From an uncultured Bacteroidota bacterium (GTDB lineage: Bacteria > Bacteroidota > Bacteroidia > Bacteroidales > F082), in NCBI GenBank assembly GCA_900542475.1, contig UQNO01000002.1, positions 64,486 to 128,485 on the forward strand: a DNA stretch of 64,000 nucleotides, in the 5' to 3' direction. Shown here piece by piece: positions 1-32,583 of this stretch (within the stretch, counting starts at the first letter, position 1; every line of letters begins with the position of its first letter). The translations under genes were made by a program, and so were the position numbers. The notes under the pieces are model-generated. The model did no database searches and had not been told where the DNA came from. It saw only the letters and a list, made by a program, of their open reading frames with translations.

Positions 1-615
1 AACAGTGATAATCAATTATTTATAAGAGAAAATTTAAAAAAGACAGATATTTTTTCATCGCATTTCGGAAATGATAATCCAGTGATTATGTACATTGGAA
101 GGATTCAGAAACGTAAAAAATTGGATTTGCTTGTTGAAGGTTTCAAAAAATTGAAAGATGATGGTGAAAAATGCAATCTTGTTATTGTTGGTAAAGATGA
201 GGAAGATATTGGTTTATCAAAGATAATCAACGAGTTGTCTCTATGGGAGTCTGTCTGGTTATATGGTCCGTGCTACGAGGAAACCACTATTGGAGAGATG
301 TTTTATAATTCGGCGGTATGTGTGTCGCCCGGCAATGTGGGCTTGACCTCGATTCACTCTCTGACATACGGCTGTCCTGTGGTGACACACGACAATTTTT
401 CTTATCAAATGCCGGAATTTGAGGCCATTACGGCTAATGTGACAGGCAGTTTTTTTAAAATGGATGATATTGACGATTTGATCGAAAAAATAAAATTCTG
501 GCTTGAAAAAACACCTGAAGAGCAAAATACGACACGGGAAGAAGCGTATCGAACCATTGATGAAAAATGGAATATACACTATCAGATTGAAGTGATGAAA
601 AAAGTATTTGCCTAA
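1..615 (+). CDS. Glycosyltransferase family 4 (GT1-fold C-terminal domain); 5' end lies outside the window
   Basis: Frame 1 is open from base 1 with no stop before 615, so the ORF track start at 82 is an internal Met. The C-terminal GT4-like motif is EGFKKL...VIVGKDEEDIG...GCPVVTHD. Confidence 0.8.
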   Translation, partial: NSDNQLFIRENLKKTDIFSSHFGNDNPVIMYIGRIQKRKKLDLLVEGFKKLKDDGEKCNLVIVGKDEEDIGLSKIINELSLWESVWLYGPCYEETTIGEMFYNSAVCVSPGNVGLTSIHSLTYGCPVVTHDNFSYQMPEFEAITANVTGSFFKMDDIDDLIEKIKFWLEKTPEEQNTTREEAYRTIDEKWNIHYQIEVMKKVFA

Positions 616-1934
616 TGCCCAAAATTATCCAGATAAACACCGCCTTGAACTGTGGCTCGCATGGCAGAATCGTGGAGCAGATTTCACATATCGCTGCCGA
701 AAGAGGCTTCGAGACAACCATCGTACATGGCGCTCGTTATGTGAATAAATCGCAATGCTCCGCTATCCAAACAACTACAAGGTTGCAAGAAAAACTGAAC
801 GGCTTGAGAAGTCTGCTGTTCGACGCTCATGGATTAGGTCTGAAAAATGCTACTAAATCGTTGATAACCAAGCTTGAAAGGATAAAACCGGATATTGTCC
901 ATCTGCATAATATTCACGGATATTATCTGAACTATCGTATTTTGTTTGAATATCTTGCTAAAAGTGGCGTGCCTGTCGTCTGGACATTGCACGACTGTTG
1001 GAGCATGACCGGACATTGTGCGCAGTTTGAAAACTATCATTGCGACAAATGGAAGATACAATGCCATGATTGTCAATATCTTACGGATTGGTATCCAAAG
1101 GCTGTCATGGATAACTCGAAGCGGAATTTTGAACTAAAAAAGCAATGTTTCACCTCGGTTGAAAACATGACAATAGTGCCGGTGTCGCATTGGCTTGAAG
1201 ATGTTGTCAAACAGTCGTTCTTGGCGAAATATCCGATAAAAGTCATCAATAATGGCGTTGACATTTCTTCGTTCCGACCGATGCCCGTTTCACCGTCATC
1301 TCGACCGATGTCCGTTTCACCGTCATTTCGACCGATGCCTGTTTCATCGTCATTTCGACCGATGCCTGTTTCATCGTCATTTCGACCGAGCGAAGCGAGT
1401 GGAGAAATCCCCTCCGACAAATTCGTTATCCTTGGTGTCGCCTCTAACTGGGACAACGACAAGGGCGTTCAAGAGTTTGTTAAACTGTCCGAAAATCATG
1501 ATTATCAAGTTGTCATGCTTGGCGTGAAGGACAATTTAAAACAAAAATTGCCCAAGAATATCATTGCGATTTCATGTACCGACAGTCAGGACGAACTCGC
1601 CGAATATTATTCGCTTGCCGATGTTTTTGTAAATCCTACATACAAGGACACCTTTCCGACGGTGAATCTTGAGGCGTTGGCATGCGGAACACCGGTGGTC
1701 ACATATAAAACCGGAGGCAGTCCGGAGTCTGTCACGGCTGAAACAGGAATTGTGGTTGAAAAAGGCTGTTTCAATCAGCTTGTGGAGGCTGTAGAGACAA
1801 TTCGTAAAAACGGAAAACATTATTACACAACGAGTTGTAGAGACAGAGCTGTGAAGTTTTACAATAAAGACAATCGTTTTAAAGATTATATGGATTTGTA
1901 TGAAAATATCCTTGATAACAGTCACATACAATAG
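615..1934 (+). CDS. Glycosyltransferase (GT4-like) carrying an in-frame 9-aa tandem repeat (SSFRPMPVS, about 4.5 copies)
   Basis: 439-aa ORF with a GT4-like N-terminus and a GT1-type C-terminus (VNLEALACGTPVVTYKTGG). The internal repeat is seen directly at 1268-1390. Confidence 0.7.
   Translation: MPKIIQINTALNCGSHGRIVEQISHIAAERGFETTIVHGARYVNKSQCSAIQTTTRLQEKLNGLRSLLFDAHGLGLKNATKSLITKLERIKPDIVHLHNIHGYYLNYRILFEYLAKSGVPVVWTLHDCWSMTGHCAQFENYHCDKWKIQCHDCQYLTDWYPKAVMDNSKRNFELKKQCFTSVENMTIVPVSHWLEDVVKQSFLAKYPIKVINNGVDISSFRPMPVSPSSRPMSVSPSFRPMPVSSSFRPMPVSSSFRPSEASGEIPSDKFVILGVASNWDNDKGVQEFVKLSENHDYQVVMLGVKDNLKQKLPKNIIAISCTDSQDELAEYYSLADVFVNPTYKDTFPTVNLEALACGTPVVTYKTGGSPESVTAETGIVVEKGCFNQLVEAVETIRKNGKHYYTTSCRDRAVKFYNKDNRFKDYMDLYENILDNSHIQ
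1268..1390 (+). repeat. 27-bp in-frame tandem repeat (about 4.5 units) with consensus GTCATTTCGACCGATGCCTGTTTCATC
   Basis: Units start at 1268, 1295, 1322 and 1349, with a partial unit at 1376. Units 3 and 4 are identical. The unit contains the GTCATTTCGACCGATG motif shared with the intergenic MITE-like repeats. Confidence 0.85.
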
Positions 1935-2661
1935 TGCCGAAACCTTGTGCGATACCTTGCAGAGCGTTCTGAATCAGACGTTTAAAGATATTGACTATAT
2001 TATTGTTGATGGCGCTTCAAAAGACAGCACAATGGATATAGTGAAGGAGTTCGAGCCGAAGTTTGAAGGTCGTCTGCGTTGGTTGTCGGAGCCTGACAAA
2101 GGTATTTACGACGCCATGAACAAAGGCGTTATGATGGCGCAGGGCGAGATTGTGAGTATCTTGAACAGCGACGACTTCTTCGCATCAAATGATATCCTTG
2201 AAAAAGTGAATGCTGCTTTCAAGGAAAACCCTGATGTTGACGGTGTTTACGCTGATGTTCGCTACGTCGGCTGGAACGACACAGGCAAAACAGTGCGTAT
2301 GTTCTCCGGCAAGGATTTCAAACGCGAAAAACTCTGCTGGGGCAAAATGCCTCCTCACCCTTCATTTTATGTAAAAAGAGAGTGTTATGACAAATTCGGT
2401 CTCTACAGCCTCGATTATCCGATTTGCGCCGACTACGACATGTTTGTGAAGATGATATGGATGGGAAACATCAACACATTGTATATCAATGATGTTTTTG
2501 TAAATATGAGAAACGGTGGCACGTCGTCGAACGGAATAAAAGTCCACAGAAAGATAATGAGAGAGAGGATGCGCTGCGTGCGCGAACATAATATGCCAAG
2601 CAATTTCTTCAAGCAGACATCGCGTTATTTTGGTAAAATATTCAGTCTTTTAAGAAAATAA
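1900..2661 (+). CDS. Glycosyltransferase family 2
   Basis: N-terminal GT2 signature ISLITVTYNSAETL...DYIIVDGASKD. Overlaps the upstream gene by 35 nt. Confidence 0.8.
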   Translation: MKISLITVTYNSAETLCDTLQSVLNQTFKDIDYIIVDGASKDSTMDIVKEFEPKFEGRLRWLSEPDKGIYDAMNKGVMMAQGEIVSILNSDDFFASNDILEKVNAAFKENPDVDGVYADVRYVGWNDTGKTVRMFSGKDFKREKLCWGKMPPHPSFYVKRECYDKFGLYSLDYPICADYDMFVKMIWMGNINTLYINDVFVNMRNGGTSSNGIKVHRKIMRERMRCVREHNMPSNFFKQTSRYFGKIFSLLRK

Positions 2662-2664
2662 GCC

Positions 2665-4029
2665 ATGAAACACATGAAGTTATATAAAAACTGGTATCGC
2701 TTTTTTGCCAATTCAATATTGGTTTTGATGGCGTTGTTGTGTTACATTTATGTCTGGTTCAACTACGTGAATGTGATGCTGGATAAAACATATATCATGA
2801 AGGGGAACTTCTTGGTGTTGGGCGTTTATGCCGTCATTATCACATATTTCATAAGTTTTTTCGGCGGATTTAATATAGGGGTGAACAAGAAATCCAATGT
2901 GATTATCTCGCAAATCATCGGGCTTTTAATATCAAACGGCATTTATTTTGTCGTGACGGTGATGATGGCGGGTTATATGCATCGCATTCCGAGGTTGTTG
3001 TTATACTACGGATGCACTTTCATTGTGCAAGCCGTCCTGGTGTCTTTCGTCTCGTATATGTTCATGACGCTGTTTTATAAGATATTTCCGCCTTATAAAG
3101 TGTTGAATATCAGAGGTAATCATGATAATAATCTGGCAGATAAGTTCGATTCGAGAAACGATAAATATAATGTGGCTGGCGAAATAAGTTTTGACGCGGA
3201 TATGGAAGAAATTGACAATATTGTTGATGATTATGACGCCGTTTTGATAAACGATGTGCCGAGTGAGAAGCGGAACCGTATCTTGAAGATATGTTTTGCG
3301 AAAAACAAGAGAGTGTACATCACGCCCAAGATTTCGGATATTATCATCAAAAGCGCCGACACCCTGGCTGTTTTCGACACTCCTTTGCTTTTGGCCAACA
3401 ACAGCACTCTTTCGATAACTGAAAGGGCGGTGAAACGGGCCTTCGACATCTTTTTGTCGGCCTTTGGGTTGATATTGCTCTCACCGCTGATGATATTGGT
3501 TTCGATGGCTATTTTTTTATACGACAGAGGACCTGTTTTTTATCGTCAAGCGAGATACACCAAGGGCGGAAGGATTTTTAAGATATTGAAGTTCAGAAGC
3601 ATGGTGCCCGACGCCGAGAAAGATGGAGTTGCCAGGCTGGCAGCTGACAAGGACGATAGGATTACACCTATAGGAAGATTTATCAGAGCCACGAGATTAG
3701 ACGAGCTTCCCCAGTTTTTCAACATCTTGAGTGGCGACATGAGTTTCGTCGGCCCGCGGCCGGAACGCCCGGAAATCGCCGACGAATACATAAAAGAGCT
3801 GCCGGAGTTCGCTTTTCGTCTAAAGGTCAAGGCTGGACTGACAGGCTATGCGCAGATTTATGGCAAATACAACACCACATCTTACGACAAGCTTAAACTC
3901 GACATGATTTACGTCGAAAACCGCTCGATACTCATGGATTTGAAACTTTTACTATTAACATTGAAGGTTGTCTTTATGAAAGAAAGCACCGAAGGACTTG
4001 AAGACGGACAGATAACAGCAATGAAATAA
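2665..4029 (+). CDS. Polyprenyl glycosylphosphotransferase (bacterial sugar transferase, WbaP/EpsL-like initiating enzyme)
   Basis: N-terminal TM segments plus the C-terminal bacterial sugar-transferase domain (RAFDIFLSAFGLILLSP...DELPQFFNILSGDMSFVGPRPERPE). Confidence 0.85.
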   Translation: MKHMKLYKNWYRFFANSILVLMALLCYIYVWFNYVNVMLDKTYIMKGNFLVLGVYAVIITYFISFFGGFNIGVNKKSNVIISQIIGLLISNGIYFVVTVMMAGYMHRIPRLLLYYGCTFIVQAVLVSFVSYMFMTLFYKIFPPYKVLNIRGNHDNNLADKFDSRNDKYNVAGEISFDADMEEIDNIVDDYDAVLINDVPSEKRNRILKICFAKNKRVYITPKISDIIIKSADTLAVFDTPLLLANNSTLSITERAVKRAFDIFLSAFGLILLSPLMILVSMAIFLYDRGPVFYRQARYTKGGRIFKILKFRSMVPDAEKDGVARLAADKDDRITPIGRFIRATRLDELPQFFNILSGDMSFVGPRPERPEIADEYIKELPEFAFRLKVKAGLTGYAQIYGKYNTTSYDKLKLDMIYVENRSILMDLKLLLLTLKVVFMKESTEGLEDGQITAMK

Positions 4030-4032
4030 GAG

Positions 4033-4782
4033 ATGGAGCCATTAGTTTCCGTAATAATGCCCTGTTACAATGCCGAGCGCTACATAGCGCAAAGCATAGA
4101 GTCGGTATTGGCACAGACCTACCAGAACTGGGAGTTGCTGATAACGGATGACGGCTCAACCGACAGAGTCGTTGAGATTGTCCGTGAATACTGTAAGAAA
4201 GACGGACGAATTGATTTGCTTGTCAACGAGCATAAAGGCATTGCGGAGACAAGAAATGCCTCGATTGCAAGAGCAAAAGGACGGTTTCTGGCGTTTTTGG
4301 ACAATGATGATTTGTGGATGCCTGAAAAACTTGAAAAGCAGATAAGTTTTATGCTTAAACATAAAGTCGGCTTTTCCTATACAAACTATGAACTTATTGA
4401 TAAAAATGGTGTTAGAAAGAACAAAATAATAAAGACACAAGGCATAATCGATTACAAGAAATATTTGAGAAACACTATAATCGGTTGTGGCACTGTGGTT
4501 GTTGACCGTGATATCGTTGGATGTATAAGAATGCCGATAAACGACACAAGCGATGATATGATGTTGTGGCTTTCCATAATGCATAGAGGCTTCAAAGCAT
4601 ATCCACTTGATGAAATCCTGATGAAGTATCGTGTTAGAAAAAAATCTGCTTCAAGCAACAAATTCAAGGCTTCGCGAGATGTTTGGCGAGTTTATCGCGA
4701 CAATGAGGGTTTTGCTGTTGTGAAATCATCATATTATTTTGTTTGTTACGCTTTTAATGCAATAAAAAAACGAATGTTTTGA
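4033..4782 (+). CDS. Glycosyltransferase family 2
   Basis: VSVIMPCYNAERYI...LLITDDGSTD is a GT2 signature, and a DND motif is present. Confidence 0.8.
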   Translation: MEPLVSVIMPCYNAERYIAQSIESVLAQTYQNWELLITDDGSTDRVVEIVREYCKKDGRIDLLVNEHKGIAETRNASIARAKGRFLAFLDNDDLWMPEKLEKQISFMLKHKVGFSYTNYELIDKNGVRKNKIIKTQGIIDYKKYLRNTIIGCGTVVVDRDIVGCIRMPINDTSDDMMLWLSIMHRGFKAYPLDEILMKYRVRKKSASSNKFKASRDVWRVYRDNEGFAVVKSSYYFVCYAFNAIKKRMF

Positions 4783-5615
4783 ACTACGACTTTTTCATAT
4801 ATCGTCATGCCTGGAGATATAATTTGGCTCCCGATTGCGAACCGGAACTCTCTGATGCGCAATTTAAAGAATTGTTGTGTCAAGGTGGTTGGTTTGTCAG
4901 AAACACATTCGATTTTGATTGCAAGGAAAAAACCGATTTCTGGTACGTGATAAAGGATTCGTTCGGTGGGATGGAGGAACACACTTCTAACGAAAGAAGA
5001 AAAATCCGACGTGCTCTGAATGCTTTTGATTACAGGCTTATTGATATTGCAGTTTTAAGAAATCAAGGTTATCCGATAATTAAAGAAACATTTGAGGATT
5101 ACAAAGTTAAAGATCGTCCGATGACGAAAGCTGTTTTTACAGATTATCTTGATTATTGCTCTGAAAACAGATTTAACTATTGGGGCGTTTTTAATAAAGA
5201 CAATCAAGAATTAATAGGCTTCTGCACAGTGCATGTTTGGGATAATTCCTGTGAATACGGTATCTCAGGCATAGTGACGGAGTATAAGCGCAATTCAACT
5301 TATCCATACTATGGACTGTATTTCAAAATGAATGAGTATTACTTGGATGAGAAAAAGTTTGATTACGTTACCGATTCGGCCCGAAGCATCACCGAGCACT
5401 CGAATATCCAGCCGTTTCTTGAGCAGAATTTCAAGTTCAGAAAGGCGTATTGCAAGCTGAAGATTAAATATAAATGGTGGTTCGGGGCAATAGTGAGGCT
5501 GCTGCTGCCATTTAGGAAACTGATAAGAAACAGGAATGTGAGGGCTGTTTTGAACATGCATTTGATGCAGTCGTCAGTTCGACCGAAGCGGAATAAAATG
5601 GAGCGAAATGGATGA
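4779..5615 (+). CDS. Hypothetical protein, possibly a GNAT/FemAB-fold transferase. The last 14 aa or so are encoded by a MITE-like repeat.
   Basis: 278-aa ORF in operon context with GTs. The C-terminal tail SSVRPKRNKMERNG overlaps repeat copy A. Confidence 0.4.
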   Translation: MNYDFFIYRHAWRYNLAPDCEPELSDAQFKELLCQGGWFVRNTFDFDCKEKTDFWYVIKDSFGGMEEHTSNERRKIRRALNAFDYRLIDIAVLRNQGYPIIKETFEDYKVKDRPMTKAVFTDYLDYCSENRFNYWGVFNKDNQELIGFCTVHVWDNSCEYGISGIVTEYKRNSTYPYYGLYFKMNEYYLDEKKFDYVTDSARSITEHSNIQPFLEQNFKFRKAYCKLKIKYKWWFGAIVRLLLPFRKLIRNRNVRAVLNMHLMQSSVRPKRNKMERNG

Positions 5616-5708
5616 ATCTCCTGCAATTGAGTGTTACGGTGCAATGGTTTGTCGGAGATTTATTCACCAAAGGTGAATGCTTTCGCTTCGCTCAGGTCTC
5701 GACTTCGC
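5570..5708. repeat. MITE-like dispersed repeat, copy A (GTCAGTTCGACCGAAGCGGAATAAAATGGAGCGAAATGGA core)
   Basis: Shares an about 40-bp core (AGCGGAATAAAATGGAGCGAAATGGA) with copies B and C. Related copies are at 6659, 7795, 12111 and 17836. Confidence 0.6.
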
Positions 5709-5774
5709 TCGAAATGACGTGTTTGGATGCTTGAAATGACGTGTTTGGATGCTCGAAATGACGTATTTGGACGC
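5709..5774. repeat. 22-bp tandem repeat x3 (TCGAAATGACGTGTTTGGATGC), inverted orientation of the GTCATTTCGA motif
   Basis: Three consecutive near-identical 22-mers. They form the distal inverted terminus of copy A. Confidence 0.8.
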
Positions 5775-5791
5775 TTGACATATCAAAGAAA

Positions 5792-6382
5792 TTGAATATG
5801 ATAATAAAATATATTTTCGATAGATTTTTTTCCTTAATCGGGCTGATATTATTATCTCCCTTTTTGTTGGTGGTTTTTATACTGCATAAGATAAAAATGC
5901 CTAAAGGGTCGTTTATCTATAGGCAGAACAGGGTCGGAAAAGACGGCAAGTTGTTCAAAATCTTCAAGATACGGACTTTGAGAGATAATTCCGAGGAGGC
6001 TGGTTCGGTGACTATAGCTGACGACGAACGCATATTGCCTTTCGGAAAATGGCTGCGCGAGAGCAAAATCGACACGTTTTTGGAACTCATTAATATATTA
6101 ATAGGAGACATGAGTTTCGTGGGTCCGCGTCCCGATGTGCCCGGCTATGCCGACAAACTCGAAGGCGACGACAGAGTCATTCTCAAAATGCGCCCCGGAT
6201 TGACAGGCCCTGCTTCGATAAAATATCGTCACGAAGATGAGATTTTGGCAAGACAAGACAACCCTCAAGAGTATAACGACACAGTAATATGGCCCGACAA
6301 AGTCAAAATCAACAGGGAATATTATGAAAAATGGTCGGTATGGCGCGATGTCTCAATACTTTTTGAAACAATTTTCGGATAG
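5792..6382 (+). CDS. Small monotopic phosphoglycosyl transferase (PglC/WcaJ C-terminal-domain type sugar transferase)
   Basis: 196 aa with a single N-terminal TM and the sugar-transferase motif KIFKIRTL...DMSFVGPRPDVP...PGLTGPASI. Confidence 0.8.
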   Translation: MNMIIKYIFDRFFSLIGLILLSPFLLVVFILHKIKMPKGSFIYRQNRVGKDGKLFKIFKIRTLRDNSEEAGSVTIADDERILPFGKWLRESKIDTFLELINILIGDMSFVGPRPDVPGYADKLEGDDRVILKMRPGLTGPASIKYRHEDEILARQDNPQEYNDTVIWPDKVKINREYYEKWSVWRDVSILFETIFG

Positions 6383-6439
6383 TAATAAATTGAAAATCAA
6401 CAACATATAAAATTTTTTAAAAATATCTTAAAAAAATTG

Positions 6440-6470
6440 TCGCGCGTATTGAAAAACGCCGTACTTTTGC
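6440..6470 (+). promoter_or_regulatory. Candidate Bacteroides-type promoter (-7 TACTTTTG) upstream of tRNA-Asn
   Basis: TAnnTTTG match at 6462-6469 with a TTG about 20 nt upstream. A similar TTTTGCACTCG string recurs upstream of upxY. Confidence 0.4.
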
Positions 6471-6497
6471 ACTCGCAAACGGAGAAAACCGTTGTCA

Positions 6498-6571
6498 GCC
6501 TCCTTAGCTCAGTTGGTTAGAGCATCTGACTGTTAATCAGGGGGTCTCAGGTTCAAGTCCTGAAGGAGGCG
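6498..6571 (+). tRNA. tRNA-Asn (anticodon GTT)
   Basis: Manually folded cloverleaf. The 7-bp acceptor stem is GCCTCCT/AGGAGGC, the anticodon stem is TCTGA/TCAGG with loop CTGTTAA, and GGTTCAAGTCC forms the T-arm. Confidence 0.85.
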
Positions 6572-6620
6572 CGAGAGAGATTACAAAGTGTAATTTTTTA
6601 TGTTTCATGTTATTAATTGA

Positions 6621-6657
6621 GAGAATGGAATCCAAGCGGTTTTCATTCTTTTTTTTA
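6621..6657 (+). terminator. Rho-independent terminator-like hairpin plus T-run after tRNA-Asn
   Basis: AGAATGGAATCCAAGCGGTTTTCATTCT stem-loop followed by TTTTTTTT. Confidence 0.5.
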
Positions 6658-6658
6658 A

Positions 6659-6820
6659 TCCGTGATTTCGACTGTAGCGGAATAAAATGGAGCGAAATGG
6701 AAACTTGAGCGAAGCGAAAGCATTCGCTAAAAGCGGATAAATCTTCTGCATTTGGGTTTTACGGTTCATCTGCTCGAAGAAGATTTCTCGACAACACTTC
6801 GTTTCGCTCGAAAAGACGAG
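6659..6820. repeat. MITE-like dispersed repeat, copy B
   Basis: CGTGATTTCGACTGTAGCGGAATAAAATGGAGCGAAATGGA ... CGCTCGAAAAGACGAG. The termini are imperfect inverted repeats. Confidence 0.55.
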
Positions 6821-6844
6821 TTTGATGAAAAAGCACTGCGAATT

Positions 6845-7813
6845 ATGAAAACTGTTTTAGGTATTGGAAACGCTCTCGTTGATATTTTGACGAGAATTGA
6901 CAACGACAACATTCTCAATGAGTTGGGATTGCCGAAGGGCTCCATGCAGCTTGTTGATGAGAAGACCTCGTCCGAGGTGTCGAAGGTTCTTGAAAAGTTT
7001 GAGAACTCCATGGCGACAGGTGGCTCGGCGGCGAACACCATTCACGGATTGGCGAAGTGCGGGGTGGACTCCGGGTTCATCGGCTTTACGGGCAACGACA
7101 AAGTCGGCCGGTTTTTTGACGATGCCATGAAATCGGTGGGCGTGCGTCCCATCATGTTTCATGGCGACATTCCCTCCGGCGTTGCCCAGGCCATCATCTC
7201 TCCTGATGGGGAGCGCACCTTTGCGACATATCTCGGAGCGGCGGTTTTGCTGAATGAGAGTCTTCTTTCATCAGACATTTTCCAAGGCTGGGACTACTGC
7301 TATGTGGAAGGCTATCTGATTGAAAACCGTCCGCTTTTCAAGAAGGCTATAGAGATGGCTAAAAAGGCGGGCAGCAAAGTGGTTTTAGACCTCGCGTCGT
7401 ACAATGTGGTGGAAGACAACCGCGACTTCTTAATTGAGCTTCTGCCTCGAATCGACATTGTGTTCGCCAACGAGGAAGAAGCCAAGGCGTTGACACAAAG
7501 CACCCCTGAAGCAGCTCTCGATTTCCTCGCCAAAAACTGCGAAATAGCGGTGGTGAAAGTCGGAAGCAAAGGCTCTATGATTAAACATGGCAACGAGAAG
7601 GTTACAGTGGGCTGCAACAAAGTGAACGTTATCGACACCACCGGTGCCGGCGATATGTATGCTGCCGGATTCATGGCAGGACTAATCTTCGGATATGATC
7701 TGAAAATGTGCGGGGAACTCGGCAGCTGCCTCGCCGAAAGAGTGATACAGGTGATGGGGGCGAAACTCACAGAGGAGCAATGGTGCCAAGTGAAGTCGTC
7801 ATTTCGACTGTAG
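6845..7813 (+). CDS. PfkB-family carbohydrate/adenosine kinase
   Basis: GGSAANT plus C-terminal DTTGAGD motifs. The start is set at the internal Met (MKTVLGIGNALVD) because the upstream part of the track ORF (6752-6844) overlaps repeat copy B. The last residues (SSFRL) and the stop codon lie in repeat copy C. Confidence 0.75.
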   Translation: MKTVLGIGNALVDILTRIDNDNILNELGLPKGSMQLVDEKTSSEVSKVLEKFENSMATGGSAANTIHGLAKCGVDSGFIGFTGNDKVGRFFDDAMKSVGVRPIMFHGDIPSGVAQAIISPDGERTFATYLGAAVLLNESLLSSDIFQGWDYCYVEGYLIENRPLFKKAIEMAKKAGSKVVLDLASYNVVEDNRDFLIELLPRIDIVFANEEEAKALTQSTPEAALDFLAKNCEIAVVKVGSKGSMIKHGNEKVTVGCNKVNVIDTTGAGDMYAAGFMAGLIFGYDLKMCGELGSCLAERVIQVMGAKLTEEQWCQVKSSFRL

Positions 7814-7992
7814 CGGAATACAATGAAACGAAATGAATAAGTCCTCCGCATTTGAGCATTGTGGCGCAATTGTTTGTCGGAGACTTGTTCGCCCTAATGG
7901 TTGAATCTTCAACAAACAATTCTTCAAAAATCTTTGAATACTGGAGGTTTTCCTGCCATTTCCCACTCTTCGGGATAGGGTCGAAACGATAT
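7795..7992. repeat. MITE-like dispersed repeat, copy C
   Basis: GTCGTCATTTCGACTGTAGCGGAATACAATGAAACGAAATGAA...TTGTTTGTCGGAGACTTGTTCGCC, with an inverted GTCGAAACGAT near 7980. Confidence 0.5.
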
Positions 7993-8093
7993 TCAAAAAT
8001 ATTGTGAAAAATTAATTATGACTTTCGACTTTTTTGTGTATCTTTGCGCCCAAATTGAAAAAAATAATTGTAAAAGTATAGAATTTAAACAAA

Positions 8094-10229
8094 ATGAAGG
8101 TATTTCAGACAGACGACATTCGGAACATCGCTCTCATTGGAGCTGCTAAATCCGGAAAGACCACGCTTGCAGAAAACATGATTTTTGAAGGCAAGCTCAT
8201 CAACAGAAAAGGGGACACTACAAGCAAGAACACAGTGTCAGACTACCGCCCAATTGAGACGGAACGCGGTATCTCTGTTAACGCCAGCTTGTGTTATACA
8301 ATCTTTAACAATAAGAAAATAAATATCTTGGATACTCCTGGCTTTAGCGATTTTTCTGGCGATATCGTCGCTTGTCTGAACGCTGTCGACACAGCCGTAT
8401 TCACAGTCAACGCACAGTCGGGTGTCGAGGCTACGACGGAAAACGCATGGAAACACGCTGCAAATACAAACAAACCGATAGTGTTCTTCATGAACCAGCT
8501 CGACCATAACAACGCCAACTTCGAGGACGCCATTCATCAGTTGAAGGAATACTTCGGCGACAAGGTGACTCCTATCCAGTTCCCGGTAAACGCCGGCGAA
8601 GGCTTCAACGCTGTCATCGACCTCATCATGAAGAAGATGCTTGTTTTCAAGAATGGCAACGGTGTTCCCGAGGTTCAAGACATTCCTGCCAATCTCGCGG
8701 ACAAGGCGGAAGAGCTTCACAACGAGCTTATCGAGCACGCTGCGGAGGGTGACGACGCTCTCATGGAGAAATTCTTCGACGAAGGCACGCTTTCAGAGGA
8801 GGATATGGAAAAAGGCATTCGCATGGGCATCGCGAAACGCGAGATATTCCCTGTTGTATGCGGCGCGGCAAAGAGCGGTGTCGGCGTGACACGTCTTCTC
8901 GAATTCATTGTCAACGCCTGCCCATCACCGGCACACGTCGCTCCTGTCAAAGCCGAGAACGGCACGGAGTTCCACAACGATGTCAACGAGCCTACAGCCT
9001 TGTTCTTCTTCAAGATATCCAACGAGCAGAACGTCGGCGACGTCTCCATGGCGCGTGTCTATGGTGGCACGGTGTCGGAGGCTCAAGACCTCGTCAACCC
9101 ACGCACGGGCAACAAAGAGCGCATCTCGCAGATACTCGTTTCCAACGGTAAGAACCGCGAGAGAGTGGAGAAAGCATGCGCTGGCGACATCATCTCGACA
9201 ATCAAGTTGAAAGATGTCCGCGTGGGCGACAGCCTCGTTGACGCAAAGGTGGCAGAAGCCGCATTCCCTGCAATACAGTTCCCGACACCTGTCTTCTCAA
9301 TAGCTATCAAAGCTGTCAACTCACAGGAAGATGAAAAACTTGGGAGCATCCTCAACGATATGCACAAGACCGACCCGACTATCATCACAGGTATGTCGCG
9401 CGAGTTGAAACAGAATATCCTTCAGTGCCAGGGTGAATATCACCTCAACACTATCAAATGGTATCTCGACAATGTACATAAAATCGCTGTTGAGTTTGCA
9501 TCACCTAAGATTCCTTACAGAGAGACCATCACAAAGTCGGCTAACGGCGACTATCGTCATAAGAAACAGTCAGGTGGTTCAGGTCAGTTTGGCGAGGTTC
9601 ACATGCGCCTGGCTCCTTACTATGAAGGATACACCGACCCGACAGATTTACAGGTTCGTGACACTCAAGAATACGACCTTCCATGGGGCGGCAAGCTCAT
9701 CTTCAAGAACTGTATCGTCGGTGGCTCCATTGACGCGCGTTTCATGCCGGCTATCTTGAAAGGTATCAACGAGCGTCTCGAAGAAGGTCCTCTCACAGGT
9801 TCGTATGCGCGCGATATCGTCGTTTACGTGTATGACGGTAAGATGCACCCTGTTGATTCTAACGAAATGGCATTCAAGATCGCGGGTCGTATGGCATTCT
9901 CAATAGCATTCAAGGCAGCGGGTCCTAAAATTATGGAACCTATTTACGACCTCACAGTCCGTATGCCAGAAGATATGATGGGTGCTGTCAATACCGACCT
10001 CCAGAGCCGTCGCGCAATCATCATGGGTATGGATTCTGACAGAAACTACCAGATTATCCGTGCTAAAGTGCCGCTTGCGGAGATGGATCGTTATTCGACA
10101 TCTCTCAGCTCTCTCACCTCCGGTCGTGGCTCGTTCACAATGACATACGCTGAATACGCTCAAGTCCCGGCCGATGTCCAGACCAAGCTGTTGAAAGCGT
10201 ACGAGGAATCGAAGAAAGACGAAGATTAA
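8094..10229 (+). CDS. Elongation factor G family GTPase (divergent EF-G paralog)
   Basis: 711 aa with G1 AKSGKTTL, G3 DTPGFSDF and EF-G-like domain order. Its length argues against a TetM/TetQ-type ribosomal protection protein. Confidence 0.75.
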   Translation: MKVFQTDDIRNIALIGAAKSGKTTLAENMIFEGKLINRKGDTTSKNTVSDYRPIETERGISVNASLCYTIFNNKKINILDTPGFSDFSGDIVACLNAVDTAVFTVNAQSGVEATTENAWKHAANTNKPIVFFMNQLDHNNANFEDAIHQLKEYFGDKVTPIQFPVNAGEGFNAVIDLIMKKMLVFKNGNGVPEVQDIPANLADKAEELHNELIEHAAEGDDALMEKFFDEGTLSEEDMEKGIRMGIAKREIFPVVCGAAKSGVGVTRLLEFIVNACPSPAHVAPVKAENGTEFHNDVNEPTALFFFKISNEQNVGDVSMARVYGGTVSEAQDLVNPRTGNKERISQILVSNGKNRERVEKACAGDIISTIKLKDVRVGDSLVDAKVAEAAFPAIQFPTPVFSIAIKAVNSQEDEKLGSILNDMHKTDPTIITGMSRELKQNILQCQGEYHLNTIKWYLDNVHKIAVEFASPKIPYRETITKSANGDYRHKKQSGGSGQFGEVHMRLAPYYEGYTDPTDLQVRDTQEYDLPWGGKLIFKNCIVGGSIDARFMPAILKGINERLEEGPLTGSYARDIVVYVYDGKMHPVDSNEMAFKIAGRMAFSIAFKAAGPKIMEPIYDLTVRMPEDMMGAVNTDLQSRRAIIMGMDSDRNYQIIRAKVPLAEMDRYSTSLSSLTSGRGSFTMTYAEYAQVPADVQTKLLKAYEESKKDED

Positions 10230-10243
10230 TTTTGCGATTTACT

Positions 10244-10271
10244 GTAGAGACGTTTCTTGAAACGTCTCTAC
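10244..10271. terminator. Bidirectional terminator hairpin between convergent genes
   Basis: Perfect palindrome GTAGAGACGTTTC-TT-GAAACGTCTCTAC between the EF-G-like gene and mnmA. Confidence 0.55.
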
Positions 10272-11333
10272 TTATTCTATTACTCCGCTTCCCAGCACCA
10301 CGGGTTCGGTCTCGTGATAGATTGTGCCGAACTGACCGCCGGCAACGCCTGAAATCATCGCGTCGGAGTTGATTTTCAAGCCTTTCTCTGTGATGCCGAG
10401 CGTGCCAGTGCGGAACTCGGGCTGGTGACGGATTTTATATCTCACTTTCTCGCCTTCTGTGAACTTGATGACAGGGTTCATCGCTTGCACATCGACAAGT
10501 TCTATGATATTGGTGTATTGCGCCTCGGGGTCGTAGCCCTGCGATACAAAAACGATGTTCTGTTCAGTGTCTTTCTTGACAACGAACCACGGACCGCCTC
10601 CTAATCCCAGTCCCTTGCGCTGACCGATGGTGTGGAACCAGAATCCTTTGTGTCTGCCGAGTTTTTTGCCGGTCTCAAGCTCGATGATATCACCTTCTTT
10701 CTCTCCGACGTATTCGCGAATATAATCGCTGTAGTTGATTTTCCCCAAGAAGCAGATGCCTTGGGAGTCATGACGTCGCGCACTCGGGAGACCGTATTTT
10801 TTGGCTAACTGCCGCACCTCGCTCTTCGGAATGCCTCCGACAGGAAACATCGCCTTCTTAAGCTGCGGATATGTTATCCTTGCCAGAAAATCGGTCTGGT
10901 CTTTGAATGTGTCGATGGCAGTGCCCAACCAGGCGATGCCGTCATTGTCAATCCATTGCCGGGCATAGTGTCCGGTGGCGATGCGGTCGAACTGATAGCC
11001 CGCTTTCTCCTCGAAAGCGCCGAACTTGATGAAACGGTTGCACATCACGTCCGGGTTGGGAGTGAGACCATTGCGCACAGAGTCCATGGTGTAACGCGCC
11101 ACACGGTCGTAATACTCTTTCTGCAAGTCGATGATGTCGAATTTGCAGCCGTATTTTTTCGCTATATAGGTGGTTATTTCAATGTCTTCCTCCGAAGGGC
11201 AGTCCATCAGGTCTTCCTTGCCCTCAAGTCCAATCTTGATGTAAAAGATATGAGGGTCAATGCCTTGCTCCTTAAGGAGTGGCACTATCACCGAACTATC
11301 GACACCGCCCGATACTAAAGCTGCAACATTCAT
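10272..11333 (-). CDS. mnmA: tRNA-specific 2-thiouridylase MnmA
   Basis: N-terminal PP-loop SGGVDSSV and full-length similarity to MnmA/TrmU. Confidence 0.9.
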   Translation of the reverse strand: MNVAALVSGGVDSSVIVPLLKEQGIDPHIFYIKIGLEGKEDLMDCPSEEDIEITTYIAKKYGCKFDIIDLQKEYYDRVARYTMDSVRNGLTPNPDVMCNRFIKFGAFEEKAGYQFDRIATGHYARQWIDNDGIAWLGTAIDTFKDQTDFLARITYPQLKKAMFPVGGIPKSEVRQLAKKYGLPSARRHDSQGICFLGKINYSDYIREYVGEKEGDIIELETGKKLGRHKGFWFHTIGQRKGLGLGGGPWFVVKKDTEQNIVFVSQGYDPEAQYTNIIELVDVQAMNPVIKFTEGEKVRYKIRHQPEFRTGTLGITEKGLKINSDAMISGVAGGQFGTIYHETEPVVLGSGVIE

Positions 11334-11338
11334 GCCTT

Positions 11339-12103
11339 TTATTTATTTAATTCTACAACAACCGGACAATGGTCGGAGTGCTTTGCCTCGGGTAATATCG
11401 AGGCCCTGATGATATTGTCTTTCAAAGAGTTTGTAACTATATGATAATCAATGCGCCAGCCTTTGTTATTGGCTCTTGCGTTGGCTCGATAGCTCCACCA
11501 TGAATAATGATGCGGCTCCTTGCAGAGATAACGAAAGCTGTCGATGTAGCCGTCGCCGAGGAAGTCGGTGAACCATTGCCGCTCTTCCGGCAAAAAGCCC
11601 GAGCTTGTGGCGTTTCTCACAGGGTCGTGAATGTCGATAGCCTCGTGGCAGATGTTATAATCGCCCGAAAGAACTAAATTGGGGCGTTCTTTTCGCAACT
11701 CATTGACATGATGACGGAAGAATTCGAGCCATTCCATCTTGAAATCCTGGCGTTCCTCTCCCGTGGTGCCGGAAGGGTGATACACGCTTACAATCGACAG
11801 ATCGCCGAAGTCAGCTCTGAGAAAACGCCCTTCGTCGTCGTATTTCTTATTGTTCATGCCGAAAACCACCTTGTCAGGCTCCTTTTTCGTGAGAATTCCC
11901 ACTCCGCTATAGCCTTTCTTCTGTGCCGAGAACCAGAAGCTGTGATAGCCCATTGCCTCAATCTCCATCACCGGAATCTGGTCCGGCATGGCTTTCAACT
12001 CCTGAAAGCACACTATATCCGGCGATACCGAGTCGAGCCACTCGAGCAGGCCTTTCGATATCGCTGCACGAATTCCATTTACATTATAACTGATTATCTT
12101 CAT
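11339..12103 (-). CDS. xth: Exodeoxyribonuclease III (Xth family AP endonuclease)
   Basis: MKIISYNVNGIRA...CFQELK...and a C-terminal SDHCPV motif. The track start (MTIG) derives from the ATGAC of a repeat, so the start is set at MKII. Confidence 0.85.
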   Translation of the reverse strand: MKIISYNVNGIRAAISKGLLEWLDSVSPDIVCFQELKAMPDQIPVMEIEAMGYHSFWFSAQKKGYSGVGILTKKEPDKVVFGMNNKKYDDEGRFLRADFGDLSIVSVYHPSGTTGEERQDFKMEWLEFFRHHVNELRKERPNLVLSGDYNICHEAIDIHDPVRNATSSGFLPEERQWFTDFLGDGYIDSFRYLCKEPHHYSWWSYRANARANNKGWRIDYHIVTNSLKDNIIRASILPEAKHSDHCPVVVELNK

Positions 12104-12110
12104 ACCAATC

Positions 12111-12150
12111 GTCATTTCGACCGATCGCAGGGAGCGGAGAAATCTCCCTC
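12111..12150. repeat. MITE-like repeat terminus (copy D: GTCATTTCGACCGATCG plus GGGAG/CTCCC hairpin)
   Basis: An inverted partner CAGTCGAAATGAC lies at 12257-12269. The pair flanks an about 105-bp AT-rich segment. Confidence 0.5.
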
Positions 12151-12343
12151 AATCAGTGCAATTATTTATTTCATCTATATTTATTATGTCTGTATCATTA
12201 ACCAATTTTATCTCACAATTATATTTATCCGTATGTGATATTTCGCCTATCGGCTTCAGTCGAAATGACTATTGAAGTGCAAAAATAGTTATTTTTTTCA
12301 AAAAATGTTCAATTCTTAAAATCATTTTTTTTATTTTTGCGAT

Positions 12344-14134: not shown

Positions 14135-14195
14135 ACGGAAATTGAAAGTGTAAAACTAAAGGAATGCGAAGCAACATGTATGCAACACCACGCTT

Positions 14196-14801
14196 TCAAC
14201 TTTTCTCTCTCAACACTTTATGATGAAATCGGTCGTTCCACAAAGCCCACATCAAAAAAATCACCACATAAAACATTATCTTAAATATAACATCATGAGC
14301 TAATGCGAATGAATCAGGGAATGGTCTTAAAAACAGGGCTATTCCGACGATTCTCACCACATTGGTGAACTCTATGATGACTAATCCGAGAGGTATATAC
14401 CATGCTTTGTGCTTCCATGGCCCCGGGAAGAGAAGCATCAGGAAAAGCCAATGCAGCCACTGTTTGAGGCTGGTGCATTCAGGCGCTACCGTCACAGCGG
14501 AATATGAATCGTGATAGTTCTCAAAGATTATAGACTGTCCTTTGGTGAAGAAATCCATGCGGAACACATGGTCGAGTGTATAGGTGCTTTGGTTGAAAAG
14601 CAACCTTGAAGCCCAGCCGAAGAGCTTATCGACAGTGCCTTTTATCGGCCAGAAATCCAACGGTCCCTCCCAAATCACATACAAGATATGGAAACTGAAA
14701 ATCAAAGTAAGGAACAGCCCGACATCAAAATACGTCTGATACCGACAGTCATTATAAAGAGCCCTGATTCGCTCTCTATTTATATCTTTAAGCCTGATCA
14801 T
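14196..14801 (-). CDS. Exosortase-family membrane protein (XrtF-like)
   Basis: 201-aa polytopic protein with an exosortase-like Cys motif (VAPECTSLK, compare CSGxRS) and NxxRI motif (TNVVRIV). Assigned by motif recognition only. Confidence 0.45.
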   Translation of the reverse strand: MIRLKDINRERIRALYNDCRYQTYFDVGLFLTLIFSFHILYVIWEGPLDFWPIKGTVDKLFGWASRLLFNQSTYTLDHVFRMDFFTKGQSIIFENYHDSYSAVTVAPECTSLKQWLHWLFLMLLFPGPWKHKAWYIPLGLVIIEFTNVVRIVGIALFLRPFPDSFALAHDVIFKIMFYVVIFLMWALWNDRFHHKVLREKS

Positions 14802-14821
14802 CTAAATAAGAATATTTCATA

Positions 14822-15610: not shown

Positions 15611-15688
15611 TGTTCAAAAAATTTTTTACAAAAGTAATAAAAAAATAATAAAAGTAGTATCTTTGTGAGATTTTTTTATTGAAAAGAT

Positions 15689-16483: not shown

Positions 16484-16493
16484 TATTTAAAAT

Positions 16494-17834: not shown

Positions 17835-17835
17835 C

Positions 17836-17945
17836 CTCGTCGTTTCGAGCCTGTCGATTTCGTCATTTCGAGCTTGTCGAGAAATCTACAGCAAGGTGAT
17901 GGGATAATTTGCAAGAGGTAGATTTCTCCACCTGCTGCAGTCGAT
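17836..17945. repeat. MITE-like repeat, copy E (direct GTCGTTTCGAGC/GTCATTTCGAGC plus hairpin GTCGAGAAATCTAC...GTAGATTTCTCCAC)
   Basis: Contains the family motif and a 14-bp inverted repeat. It probably also acts as the trkA terminator. Confidence 0.5.
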
Positions 17946-17959
17946 AAAAATAACAAAAA

Positions 17960-21362: not shown

Positions 21363-21460
21363 TAAGAATACAACTATTTAACAATATAGGAGAATTGCCG
21401 AAAATCCTTTAAAGAGTAGGCGTTTAACAGTTGTGCCCGACACAAATTAGGGTTAAAATA

Positions 21461-32279: not shown

Positions 32280-32500
32280 TCCATGTAGAGCAGGTTGAAA
32301 GCAATCATAGGAGTTTATGGGGAATCGGAAACTTTAAATAAAGACTTTGAAAAAAGCGGGGAAAGACAGTGCGATAGATAATATGGAGACAAGAAACCTC
32401 GGGGAAAAGACAGACTTGTGTAAACTTGAGCAGTTCATGTTCGGGAAATCACAAGAAAAGGATGGAGTTTTATAAGACATTGTATCAAAACTTAAATTAA

Positions 32501-32583
32501 GAGAATTTCTTAATAAAGATTTTGGACAAAAATTTAAACAAGGGGATTTCTTAATAAAGATTTTGGACAAAAACTTAAATAAG
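32501..32583. repeat. Two direct copies of an about 40-bp element (ATTTCTTAATAAAGATTTTGGACAAAAAYTTAAA)
   Basis: Seen directly. The region downstream of rmlA is non-coding. Confidence 0.8.

What the first reader, a model, noticed from the sequence alone, without database searches (positions are those of the whole stretch)
1268..1390. In-frame 27-bp tandem repeat inside a glycosyltransferase gene, built from the MITE terminal motif
About 4.5 head-to-tail units of GTCATTTCGACCGATGCCTGTTTCATC lie inside the GT4-like ORF 615-1934 and keep the frame, producing SSFRPMPVS repeats between the two halves of the enzyme. The unit contains GTCATTTCGACCGATG, identical to the terminal motif of the intergenic repeats (compare 12112-12128). 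Units 3 and 4 are 100% identical, which suggests recent expansion. Copy-number change by slippage would alter an interdomain linker of a surface-glycan enzyme. This is a potential variable-number tandem repeat acting on glycan synthesis and an example of a mobile-element motif seeding a coding repeat.
Basis: seen in the sequence. Interest (0 to 1): 0.55.

Follow-up and report, generated by a model that had tools for sequence, protein, structure and literature searches.

The report
Repeat-element-derived variable linker in glycosyltransferase
A capsule-type sugar-transferase gene of an uncultured gut Bacteroidales bacterium has its flexible inter-domain linker encoded by one arm of a widespread palindromic "junk" repeat. 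The outer end of that arm has multiplied into an in-frame 27-bp minisatellite whose copy number differs between strains.

Summary
Four 27-bp units at 1269-1376 run into a fifth, partial repeat that is the start of a complete 35-nt repeat-element arm (1375-1409). All lie in frame in a GT4 gene (615-1934), between its two Rossmann lobes, in a segment AlphaFold models as disordered.

The arm is 89% identical over 37 nt to an intergenic element in the same window. Its 24-nt core occurs verbatim on at least 120 metagenome contigs.

The array is a true VNTR. Twelve conspecific alleles form a ladder of 412, 421, 430, 439 and 448 aa, which corresponds to 1-5 units upstream of the arm. All alleles are in frame.

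The gene is not a pseudogene. dN/dS is about 0.07, and D-x7-E is invariant in 66 homologues.

New context:
- Orthologues in sister species already use the element arm as their linker.
- Stuttering of the arm's outer end is a family-wide habit. It is seen at 18 of 80 unrelated sites. It is also seen at 5707-5775, a 22-bp intergenic array that varies from 2 to 6 copies between strains.
- Periods are multiples of 3 in every coding case with Pfam domain support.
- The same arm sits in frame in three other genes.

The most likely reading is a tolerated, slippage-driven minisatellite seeded by an intragenic palindromic repeat. An effect on glycan synthesis is untested. This is a new variant of a known kind, of moderate interest.

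The parts
615..1934 (+). GT4 (GT-B fold) glycosyltransferase gene, 439 aa, in a polysaccharide-synthesis locus
   Evidence: ORF. Pfam PF13439 and PF00534. AF2 model with pTM 0.81. Foldseek hits to BshA, MshA, PimA and others. dN/dS 0.07. Synteny with Wzy, Wzx, other GT and Bac_transf genes.
1269..1295 (+). Unit 1 (TCGTTCCGACCG...), which encodes the family's conserved NGVD-x3-F-R-P motif. It is the fixed 5' anchor of the array in every allele.
   Evidence: All five DNA alleles start with TCGTTCCGACC. F[RK]P is also present in orthologues that lack any element sequence.
1296..1376 (+). Units 2-4, each made of the element's outer 13 nt (TCAT[T/C]TCGACCGA) plus a 14-nt filler. This is the copy-number-variable part; units 3 and 4 are identical.
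   Evidence: (D1). Other alleles have 0 to 4 such internal units.
1375..1409 (+). Complete 35-nt arm of the interspersed palindromic repeat (CGTC tag + ATTTCGACCGAGCGAAGCGAGTGGAGAAATC). It is read as SFRPSEASGEI.
   Evidence: 89% identity over 37 nt to 12108-12144, E = 1.9e-6 (D16, 43). The 24-nt core is found verbatim on at least 120 metagenome contigs.
5572..5775 (.). Intergenic palindromic element E1. Its right arm is followed by a 22-bp stutter array (5707-5775, 3 copies here).
   Evidence: The array has 2, 2, 4 and 6 copies in four other strains.
6660..6819 (.). Intergenic element E2 of the same family
   Evidence: (D2, I1).
7796..7893 (+). Element E3, with a left arm only. It supplies the TAG stop codon of the upstream PfkB gene.
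   Evidence: (D3).
12109..12271 (.). Intergenic element E4.
   Evidence: (D16).
17837..17954 (.). Intergenic element E5, with a 23-bp duplication of the outer end (17837-17880)

Best explanation
One arm of a widespread interspersed palindromic repeat became the coding sequence for the inter-domain linker of this GT4 enzyme in a clade of uncultured Bacteroidales. This step is inferred to be an in-frame insertion or recombination event. The arm has no stop codon in 5 of its 6 reading frames. Its first bases (TCATTTCGACCGA) resemble the gene's own F-R-P codons 27 bp upstream (TCGTTCCGACCGA). That gives two direct repeats on which slipped-strand mispairing or unequal recombination can add or remove 27-bp units, each made of the arm's outer end plus a 14-nt filler. 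Because the segment is a disordered Ser/Pro-rich tether between the two Rossmann lobes, length changes are tolerated as long as the frame is kept. Only arrays with a period that is a multiple of 3 survive. The result is a polymorphic minisatellite that is most likely neutral or nearly neutral for the enzyme.

Shown: the repeat, its frame, its position in the protein, its identity with the element arm, the allele ladder, and purifying selection on the gene.

Inferred: how the arm arrived, slippage as the mechanism of change, and near-neutrality.
For: Anatomy.

Disordered linker: residues 225-263 have pLDDT below 50 and no secondary structure, and they lie between the N-lobe (last strand 185-189, helix 192-199, and the NGVD motif at aa 213-216) and the first C-lobe strand at 270-275. 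The fold matches GT4 enzymes.

Element identity: E = 1.9e-6 for the window linker. E = 2.8e-6 for the longer arm subtype that forms the linker in L007 and L012. Native-type linkers from L008 and L010 give no hits and serve as controls.

Orthologue series:
- Distant homologues have the ordinary F-x-P...LRKKLGIGDK linker.
- L003 has the arm directly after NGVD-I.
- L005 and L009 have the native FKP or FRP, a spacer of 4-5 codons, then the arm.

Allele ladder: 412, 421, 430, 439 and 448 aa in 12 distinct proteins. Several were seen on more than one contig, one of them on 9 contigs, and one contig has about 1030x coverage. Five DNA alleles all start with the native-type unit, end with the full arm, and have element-type internal units with shuffled variants.

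Gene integrity: dN/dS is 0.07-0.09 between species, and the catalytic residues are invariant.

Generality of the stutter: 18 of 80 unrelated sites carry it, against 3 of 74 in a shifted control. There are also five arrays in this species.

Periods: the coding cases with Pfam domain support have periods of 27 (window species), 24 (L009) and 27, 24, 27, 27 (L161). Arrays outside those cases range from 19 to 45 with mixed residues modulo 3.

Peptide constraint: unit variants are mostly non-synonymous (F/S, P/S, M/R), which argues against a sequence-specific role for the peptide.
Against: All alleles come from short-read metagenome assemblies, which can miscount tandem repeats. No read-level or long-read check was possible.

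Near-neutrality is assumed. No activity or phenotype data exist.

The 36-nt arm is more conserved between species (32-35 of 36 nt, synonymous sites nearly frozen) than a disordered linker needs. This hints at constraint on the nucleotide sequence or at gene conversion from the genomic repeat pool.

In a non-coding stutter, two strains that are 99% identical differ by a clustered 5-nt replacement exactly at the junction. Simple slippage does not predict this.

Linker types are patchy on the gene tree, so how the arm arrived is unresolved.
Confidence: 0.68

Rival explanations
1. Adaptive contingency locus. Linker length tunes hinge motion between the two GT-B lobes, and so tunes the rate or specificity of a capsule-building step. 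Copy-number variation would then be maintained by selection, for example from phage or host immunity.
For: The gene sits in a polysaccharide locus. Five length classes coexist among close strains. The linker is the hinge region of a GT-B enzyme.
Against: The neighbouring non-coding array varies just as much (2-6 copies). The stutter occurs at 22% of unrelated sites. Variation therefore needs no selection. The unit peptides are poorly conserved. Sister species work with 0 extra units or with a native linker.
Confidence: 0.15
2. Element-driven stutter. The partial copies at the tagged end are footprints of the repeat family's own copying or nicking mechanism, such as iterative abortive insertion or re-priming at the [C/T]GTC tag. 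On this view they are not products of generic replication slippage, and the coding VNTR is a by-product of that activity.
For: In every array found, the partial copies lie on the tag side of a complete arm. The breakpoint within the arm varies from 11 to 22 nt, and the filler is specific to each locus. Two near-identical strains differ by a clustered replacement exactly at one junction.
Against: Within an array the filler is the same in all units, as local tandem duplication would give. Units are shuffled between alleles, as unequal recombination would give. No transposase or nuclease linked to the arms was identified. The published CGTC-tagged repeats likewise have no dedicated enzyme (PMC3733652).
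Confidence: 0.15
3. Artefact or chance. The array is a mis-assembly, or its likeness to the intergenic repeat is coincidental.
For: Short-read assemblers can collapse or expand tandem repeats. The assemblies here use k-mers up to 141 or SPAdes (record names).
Against: The same alleles recur on independent contigs and samples. Alleles differ in unit sequence as well as in unit number. The arrays are only 54-162 bp and their units are imperfect. The match to the element is significant and the controls are negative.
Confidence: 0.03

Closest known systems
Intragenic palindromic repeats: Rickettsia palindromic elements (RPE; Ogata et al. 2000, cited from memory) and intragenic GTAG/CGTC REPs (Di Nocera et al. 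2013, PMC3733652)
   Same: A short interspersed palindromic repeat, mostly intergenic and lying close to the 3' ends of genes, is also found in frame inside conserved genes. There it adds a peptide without destroying the protein. Clusters encoding 43-82 aa are reported. In this window the elements also supply stop codons to neighbouring genes.
   Different: Here only the tag-proximal 13 nt plus a local filler is amplified, upstream of one complete arm. The array is polymorphic between strains in 27-bp steps. The arm has replaced a native linker rather than adding a surface loop.
CGTC-tagged REP superfamily (PMC3733652)
   Same: The repeat has a CGTC or TGTC terminal tag followed by AT. Head-to-head pairs form long hairpins. 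The superfamily is reported in Bacteroidetes, and no linked transposase is known.
   Different: A single arm is not a palindrome in its own right (DNA fold z = 0.15), whereas REP units have an 8-9 bp stem and a 4-5 nt loop. It is therefore not filed as a member.
BrickBuilt, a minisatellite inside a MITE of Porphyromonas gingivalis (Klein et al. 2015, PMC4596501)
   Same: It is an element from the order Bacteroidales that carries a tandem array of about 23 nt with highly variable copy number.
   Different: Its 23-nt consensus AGAYCATARTATCCTCTCRTRTG is unrelated. BrickBuilt is always intergenic, and its array is internal rather than at the outer end.
MIRU-VNTR loci of Mycobacterium tuberculosis (own knowledge)
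   Same: They are interspersed repeat units arranged in tandem, with strain-specific copy number, inside operons, and they are compatible with reading frames.
   Different: MIRUs lie between genes of an operon, and whole units are repeated. Here the array lies inside an enzyme and repeats a fragment of the element.
Phase-variable simple-sequence repeats in glycosyltransferase genes, such as lgtC and lic2A in Haemophilus and lgt genes in Neisseria (own knowledge)
   Same: They are tandem repeats inside surface-glycan glycosyltransferase genes, and slippage changes their copy number.
   Different: Those units are 1-4 nt long and switch the gene on and off by frameshift. This 27-nt unit never changes the frame.

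Membership tests
Coding-region VNTR / minisatellite | Head-to-tail units of 10-100 bp whose length is a multiple of 3, leaving the ORF intact | tested here: met
   Period 27, 4.3 copies, no indels, ORF intact.
Coding-region VNTR / minisatellite | Copy number differs between strains of one species | tested here: met
   Alleles of 412, 421, 430, 439 and 448 aa. Five DNA alleles are 98-99% identical outside the array. Caveat: these are metagenome assemblies.
Coding-region VNTR / minisatellite | Copy number changes a phenotype | not testable with these tools
   This needs enzyme assays or capsule phenotyping.
Intragenic palindromic repeat (RPE / intragenic REP type) | The inserted sequence belongs to an interspersed family with many intergenic copies | tested here: met
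   There are five intergenic elements in the window. The match has E = 1.9e-6. At least 120 metagenome contigs carry the 24-nt core.
Intragenic palindromic repeat (RPE / intragenic REP type) | The insert is in frame and stop-free inside a conserved gene, and is absent from more distant orthologues | tested here: met
   Homologues at 66% identity or less have the ordinary GT4 linker. The closer clade has the arm.
Intragenic palindromic repeat (RPE / intragenic REP type) | The insert lies in a structurally permissive region and the host gene stays functional | tested here: met
   pLDDT is below 50 for residues 225-263, between the lobes. dN/dS is 0.07. Function itself is inferred, not assayed.
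CGTC-tagged REP (Di Nocera 2013) | Terminal CGTC (or TGTC) tag outside the stem, with the stem starting AT | tested here: met
   Copies read CGTC|ATTTCGA or TGTC|ATTTCGA. Definition taken.
CGTC-tagged REP (Di Nocera 2013) | Each unit is itself a palindrome with an 8-9 bp stem and a 4-5 nt loop | tested here: not met
   A single arm folds no better than shuffles (-2.8 kcal/mol, z = 0.15). Only inverted pairs give strong hairpins.
MITE | Terminal inverted repeats, small size, no coding capacity, multiple copies | tested here: met
   E1 and E4 fold as long hairpins closed by the arms and are 160-205 bp long.
MITE | Target-site duplication flanking the element | tested here: not met
   Direct reading of the flanks of E1, E4 and the L001 515-572 copy shows no flanking direct repeat. 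No empty site was available for comparison.
MITE | A parent IS with the same terminal repeats | not tested
   No transposase search was run on the window or on the loci.
Frameshift-type phase-variable repeat in a glycosyltransferase | The unit length is not a multiple of 3, so copy changes switch the ORF on and off | tested here: not met
   The unit is 27 bp and all 12 alleles are full length.
GT4 glycosyltransferase (GT-B) | Glyco_transf_4 plus Glycos_transf_1 domains, a two-Rossmann fold, and an E-x7-E type motif | tested here: met
   Pfam domains. Foldseek E = 1e-17 to BshA, MshA, PimA and others. The motif is D345-x7-E353 in all 66 homologues, a family-wide variant rather than a loss.
BrickBuilt MITE (P. 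gingivalis) | 23-nt unit matching AGAYCATARTATCCTCTCRTRTG | tested here: not met
   The consensus is unrelated to GTCATTTCGA...

The most novel reading that the evidence does not exclude
The tag-side stutter may be the footprint of how this transposase-less palindromic repeat family is copied, for example by iterative nicking or re-priming at the [C/T]GTC tag. The 35-nt arm is identical over at least 24 nt in rumen and sediment metagenomes, and its synonymous sites are nearly frozen inside the GT gene. It may therefore be kept by a conserved nucleic-acid-level function or binding protein. On that reading the coding VNTR would be a readable by-product of an unknown DNA transaction, and it would make the propagation mechanism of tagged palindromic repeats experimentally accessible.
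Probability: 0.12. Interest if true: 0.75.

Novelty: new variant of a known kind. Interest (0 to 1): 0.45.

Why it matters
This locus shows, with a full allele series, how selfish palindromic DNA can be converted into working protein sequence and then into a length-variable protein linker. The same process runs side by side in coding DNA, where only periods that are multiples of 3 are seen, and in non-coding DNA, where any period occurs. Practically, this locus and its 22-bp neighbour are ready-made strain-typing markers for an uncultured gut Bacteroidales. They are also a warning for assembly and annotation of capsule loci. If linker length affects the enzyme, this would be a non-frameshift route to capsule variation in an order known for using invertible promoters. 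If the stutter reflects the element's own copying mechanism, it gives a handle on how palindromic repeats that lack a transposase spread.

Tried and rejected
- Rfam: no family matches any of the elements, either at gathering thresholds over the whole window or at E <= 1 on 1-18500 and on seven metagenome loci.
- Literature search for the motif strings GTCATTTCGA and TCGAAATGAC: only unrelated primer hits.
- BrickBuilt as the same element: rejected, because the consensus is unrelated.
- Filing the arm as a CGTC REP: rejected, because a single arm is not a palindrome.
- Finding the same species among GTDB representatives: the best hit has only 79% aa identity, so the organism remains an uncultured Bacteroidales bacterium.
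- Whether the long-type linker (KRNEMERSGEI) descends from the native linker (KKNDDLRRKIAG): a codon-by-codon comparison by eye of the L007 and L010 linker DNA (sequences) gives about 60% identity. This cannot be told apart from the gene-wide background, so it is left unresolved. The match of the long-type linker to the element is significant.
- NJ tree of the GT proteins without the linker: the linker types are patchy. The tree is too weakly resolved to count independent acquisitions.
- Sliding-window nucleotide identity: the arm ranks in the top 4-8% of 42-nt windows, but other windows reach 95-98%, so this test alone is not decisive. The synonymous-site test is suggestive (nominal P = 0.003-0.12), and the pairs compared are not independent.
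- Frameshift phase variation: rejected.

Full report
**1. The observation**

Tandem Repeats Finder reports a 27-bp repeat at 1275-1389, with 4.3 copies, 94% matches and no indels. The repeat finder puts the units in register at 1269, 1296, 1323 and 1350, and the last two units are identical. The array lies in ORF 615-1934 (+), 439 aa, and begins exactly at codon 219. It reads SFRPMPVSP, SSRPMSVSP, SFRPMPVSS, SFRPMPVSS and then SFRPSEASGEI.

**2. The gene**

Pfam finds Glyco_transf_4 at aa 18-218 and Glycos_transf_1 at aa 264-402, so the repeat fills the gap between the two domains. An AlphaFold2 model built from a 66-sequence alignment has mean pLDDT 82 and pTM 0.81. It gives pLDDT below 50 and no secondary structure for residues 225-263. 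These lie between the N-lobe (last strand 185-189, helix 192-199, and the NGVD motif at aa 213-216) and the first C-lobe strand at 270-275. Foldseek matches GT4 enzymes such as BshA, MshA, PimA, GlgM and sucrose-phosphate synthase at E of about 1e-17.

The gene sits in a polysaccharide locus with Wzy, Wzx, other glycosyltransferases and two Bac_transf genes. It is not a pseudogene. Outside the linker, dN/dS against five other species is 0.07-0.09. D345-x7-E353 and E371 are invariant in all 66 homologues, so the Asp in place of the first Glu is a trait of the whole family.

**3. The last unit is a whole element arm**

Region 1373-1409 is 89% identical over 37 nt to 12108-12144, the left end of an intergenic palindromic element (D16). 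The blastn-short E-value is 1.9e-6 against 229 kb of held sequence with the GT genes masked.

The window holds five such elements:
- 5572-5775
- 6660-6819
- 7796-7893
- 12109-12271
- 17837-17954

E1 (5572-5775) and E4 (12109-12271) fold as long hairpins closed by the two arms. The elements abut genes: they supply the stop codons of the genes ending at 5615 and 7813. No Rfam family matches them.

Of these, 80 were loaded as loci. None of the 80 is this GT gene, and they come from varied samples. The in-gene sequence is therefore close to the consensus of a very widespread repeat.

Read directly from the sequence, the arm has no stop codon in its three forward frames (VISTERSEWRNL, SFRPSEASGEI, CHFDRAKRVEKS) or in two of its reverse frames.

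**4. History of the linker**

Homologues at 66% identity or less have the ordinary GT4 linker, NGVD-x3-F-x-P followed by ...LRKKLGIGDK. Within the closer clade, three linker types occur:
- The short arm: SFRP-SEASGEISSN.
- A 12-nt-longer arm subtype: SFRP-KRNEMERSGEI. It is 91% identical over 33 nt to window 5573-5605, with E = 2.8e-6.
- A native-like type: C-x-DT-x2-VS.

Native-type linkers give no hit to the elements and serve as a control.

L003 has the arm directly after NGVD-I. L005 and L009 keep a native FKP or FRP, then 4-5 codons, then the arm. The one-unit allele of the window species (L001) has the same layout. The gene's own F-R-P codons (TCGTTCCGACCGA) and the arm's start (TCATTTCGACCGA) therefore form two direct repeats 27 bp apart. 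That is the classic substrate for slipped mispairing or unequal exchange.

Linker types are patchy on a neighbour-joining tree of the rest of the protein. Repeated replacement or recombination is therefore likely, but it cannot be counted.

**5. The array is polymorphic**

The window protein is in the protein collection. Its 90% cluster and the neighbouring cluster together hold 12 distinct sequences of 412, 421, 430, 439 and 448 aa. These differ by whole 9-aa units, giving 1-5 units upstream of the arm. Several alleles were seen on more than one contig, and the 421-aa allele P0122 on nine.

Five alleles were read as DNA: the window, L001, L002, L211 and L212. For the three aligned at DNA level (window, L001, L002), the genes are 98-99% identical outside the array. 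Every allele starts with the native-type unit and ends with the full arm. The internal units are of the element type, and their variants (TTT/TCT, CCT/TCC/CCC, TCG/CCG) are shuffled between alleles. Most unit variants change the amino acid, so the peptide sequence is under little constraint.

Caveat: all alleles come from short-read metagenome assemblies.

**6. The stutter is a habit of the element family**

In the same locus, the 22-bp array at 5707-5775 repeats the outer end of the right arm of element E1. It has 3 copies in the window and 4, 6, 2 and 2 copies in four other strains, and it varies independently of the coding array.

Other outer-end duplications in this species and its relatives are at 17837-17880 (23 bp), L001 3532-3583 (22 bp), L005 477-537 (31 bp) and L009 (24 bp, coding).

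Among 80 unrelated metagenome sites, 18 carry one to four partial copies on the tag side, with periods of 19-45. A control shifted by 200 nt gives 3 of 74. In every array, the partial copies lie outside a complete arm. The filler is constant within an array and differs between loci.

**7. Other in-frame copies**

Pfam support shows the same arm inside real genes:
- L107: inside an aminotransferase class I/II domain (domain 36-400, arm at aa 340, frame CHFDRAKRVEKS).
- L118: between a radical-SAM core (25-187) and its SPASM domain (333-392), at aa 268.
- L161 and L150: between an APH kinase domain and a PapZ_C domain, in the same frame as in the GT (SFRPSEASGEI). L161 has a stutter with periods 27, 24, 27 and 27.

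All coding arrays with Pfam domain support have periods that are multiples of 3. Arrays outside those cases have mixed periods. This pattern is what a frame filter acting on a general duplication process would produce.

**8. Mechanism**

Best supported: a tolerated, slippage- or recombination-driven minisatellite, seeded by an intragenic palindromic-repeat arm, in a permissive disordered linker. Confidence is about 0.68.

Two observations are not explained by that account:
- The 36-nt arm is 32-35 of 36 nt identical among species whose GT genes are about 79% identical, with 8/9 to 11/11 synonymous positions conserved against 59-68% gene-wide. One sister lineage (L011) has let the arm decay (output and direct comparison).
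- Two strains that are 99% identical differ by a clustered replacement (GAAAC versus GGGGGT) exactly at a non-coding stutter junction.

These two points keep alive an element-driven rival and a possible function at the nucleotide level. An adaptive role for linker length is possible, but it is not needed to explain the variation.

**9. Comparison with known systems**

The closest published frame is intragenic palindromic repeats. These include Rickettsia RPEs and the GTAG/CGTC-tagged REPs of Di Nocera et al. 2013 (PMC3733652). That paper reports CGTC repeats in Bacteroidetes, head-to-head dimers, termini providing stop codons, intragenic copies with clusters encoding 43-82 aa, and no dedicated transposase.

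Our arm shares the CGTC/TGTC tag and the AT start. However, a single arm is not a palindrome (z = 0.15), so it is not filed as a member of that superfamily. MITE status is also unproven, because no target-site duplication was seen and no parent IS was sought.

BrickBuilt of P. gingivalis (PMC4596501) is an analogous minisatellite within a MITE, but it is unrelated in sequence and is always intergenic.

Frameshift-type phase variation of glycosyltransferases does not apply, since the unit is 27 bp.

**10. Verdict**

It is a new variant of a known kind: an intragenic palindromic repeat whose outer end has become a strain-variable, in-frame minisatellite in an enzyme linker. Functional consequences are unknown. 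Interest is moderate (0.45).

Noticed in passing
window 5707-5775: A 22-bp tandem repeat of the outer end of the right arm of intergenic element E1. It has 3 copies here and 4, 6, 2 and 2 copies in four conspecific strains, so it is a second, non-coding VNTR in the same locus.
   Followed up: yes
window 17837-17880: A 23-bp duplication of the element's outer end (TCGTCGTTTCGAGCCTGTCGATT / TCGTCATTTCGAGCTTGTCGAGA...) just downstream of the gene ending at 17834.
   Followed up: partly
window 5566-5615, 7796-7813, 12100-12115: Element arms overlap gene ends. They supply the last codons and the TAA or TAG stop of the genes ending at 5615 and 7813. They also supply an upstream in-frame ATG for the minus-strand gene starting near 12103-12115.
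   Followed up: partly
L001 3555-3570 versus L002 3555-3571: Two strains are 99% identical across a palindromic element, yet differ by a clustered replacement (GAAAC versus GGGGGT) exactly at the junction between the full arm and its stuttered partial copy. This is not what simple slippage predicts.
   Followed up: no
L107 11-1252 (-); L118 610-1899 (+); L161 764-2722 (+); L150 1067-2581 (-): The same 35-nt arm lies in frame inside an aminotransferase domain, between a radical-SAM core and its SPASM domain, and between APH and PapZ_C domains. The L161 copy has a stutter with periods 27, 24, 27 and 27. Whether APH-PapZ_C is one gene or two was not settled.
   Followed up: partly
L008 6001-7215 (linker); proteins P0004, P0026, P0035, P0036, P0040-42: The native-like linker type C-x-DT-x2-VS is encoded by a perfect 8-bp inverted repeat in L008 (GGACACAT-CGA-ATGTGTCC). 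The conserved DT..VS residues correspond to GACAC...GTGTC, which suggests a conserved hairpin in the coding sequence.
   Followed up: no
window 1385-1400 and most copies of the arm: The arm contains GCGAAGC at its centre. From memory, d(GCGAAGC) is an unusually stable DNA mini-hairpin. Whether this matters for the element was not tested.
   Followed up: no
L094-L166 (many freshwater-sediment contigs): In sediment metagenomes the arm is embedded in a longer conserved unit (...TACCGCATTTCATAAGTTCTATGACTATCC | arm | TGTCAAAACAGTTACAATC...). Some copies carry a nested insert inside the arm (GGAGA[CACGAAGCGAAGCGCAGAGCCCGGAACGG]AAATC). This suggests a larger modular element in those organisms.
   Followed up: no
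window 21387-21422: Rfam DUF805b RNA motif, 39.3 bits, above the gathering score.
   Followed up: no
window 32487-32583 and 20811-20841: A 41-bp tandem repeat (2.3 copies, 87% match) and a perfect 9-bp repeat (AATATGAAT x 3.4). Neither is related to the element family, and neither was examined.
   Followed up: no
proteins P0077, P0094, P0108, P0109, P0118, P0120; loci L021, L033, L046, L053: Some homologues of this GT4 family are 570-589 aa long, about 170 aa more than usual, while keeping an ordinary linker. The extra segment lies elsewhere in the protein and was not located.
   Followed up: no
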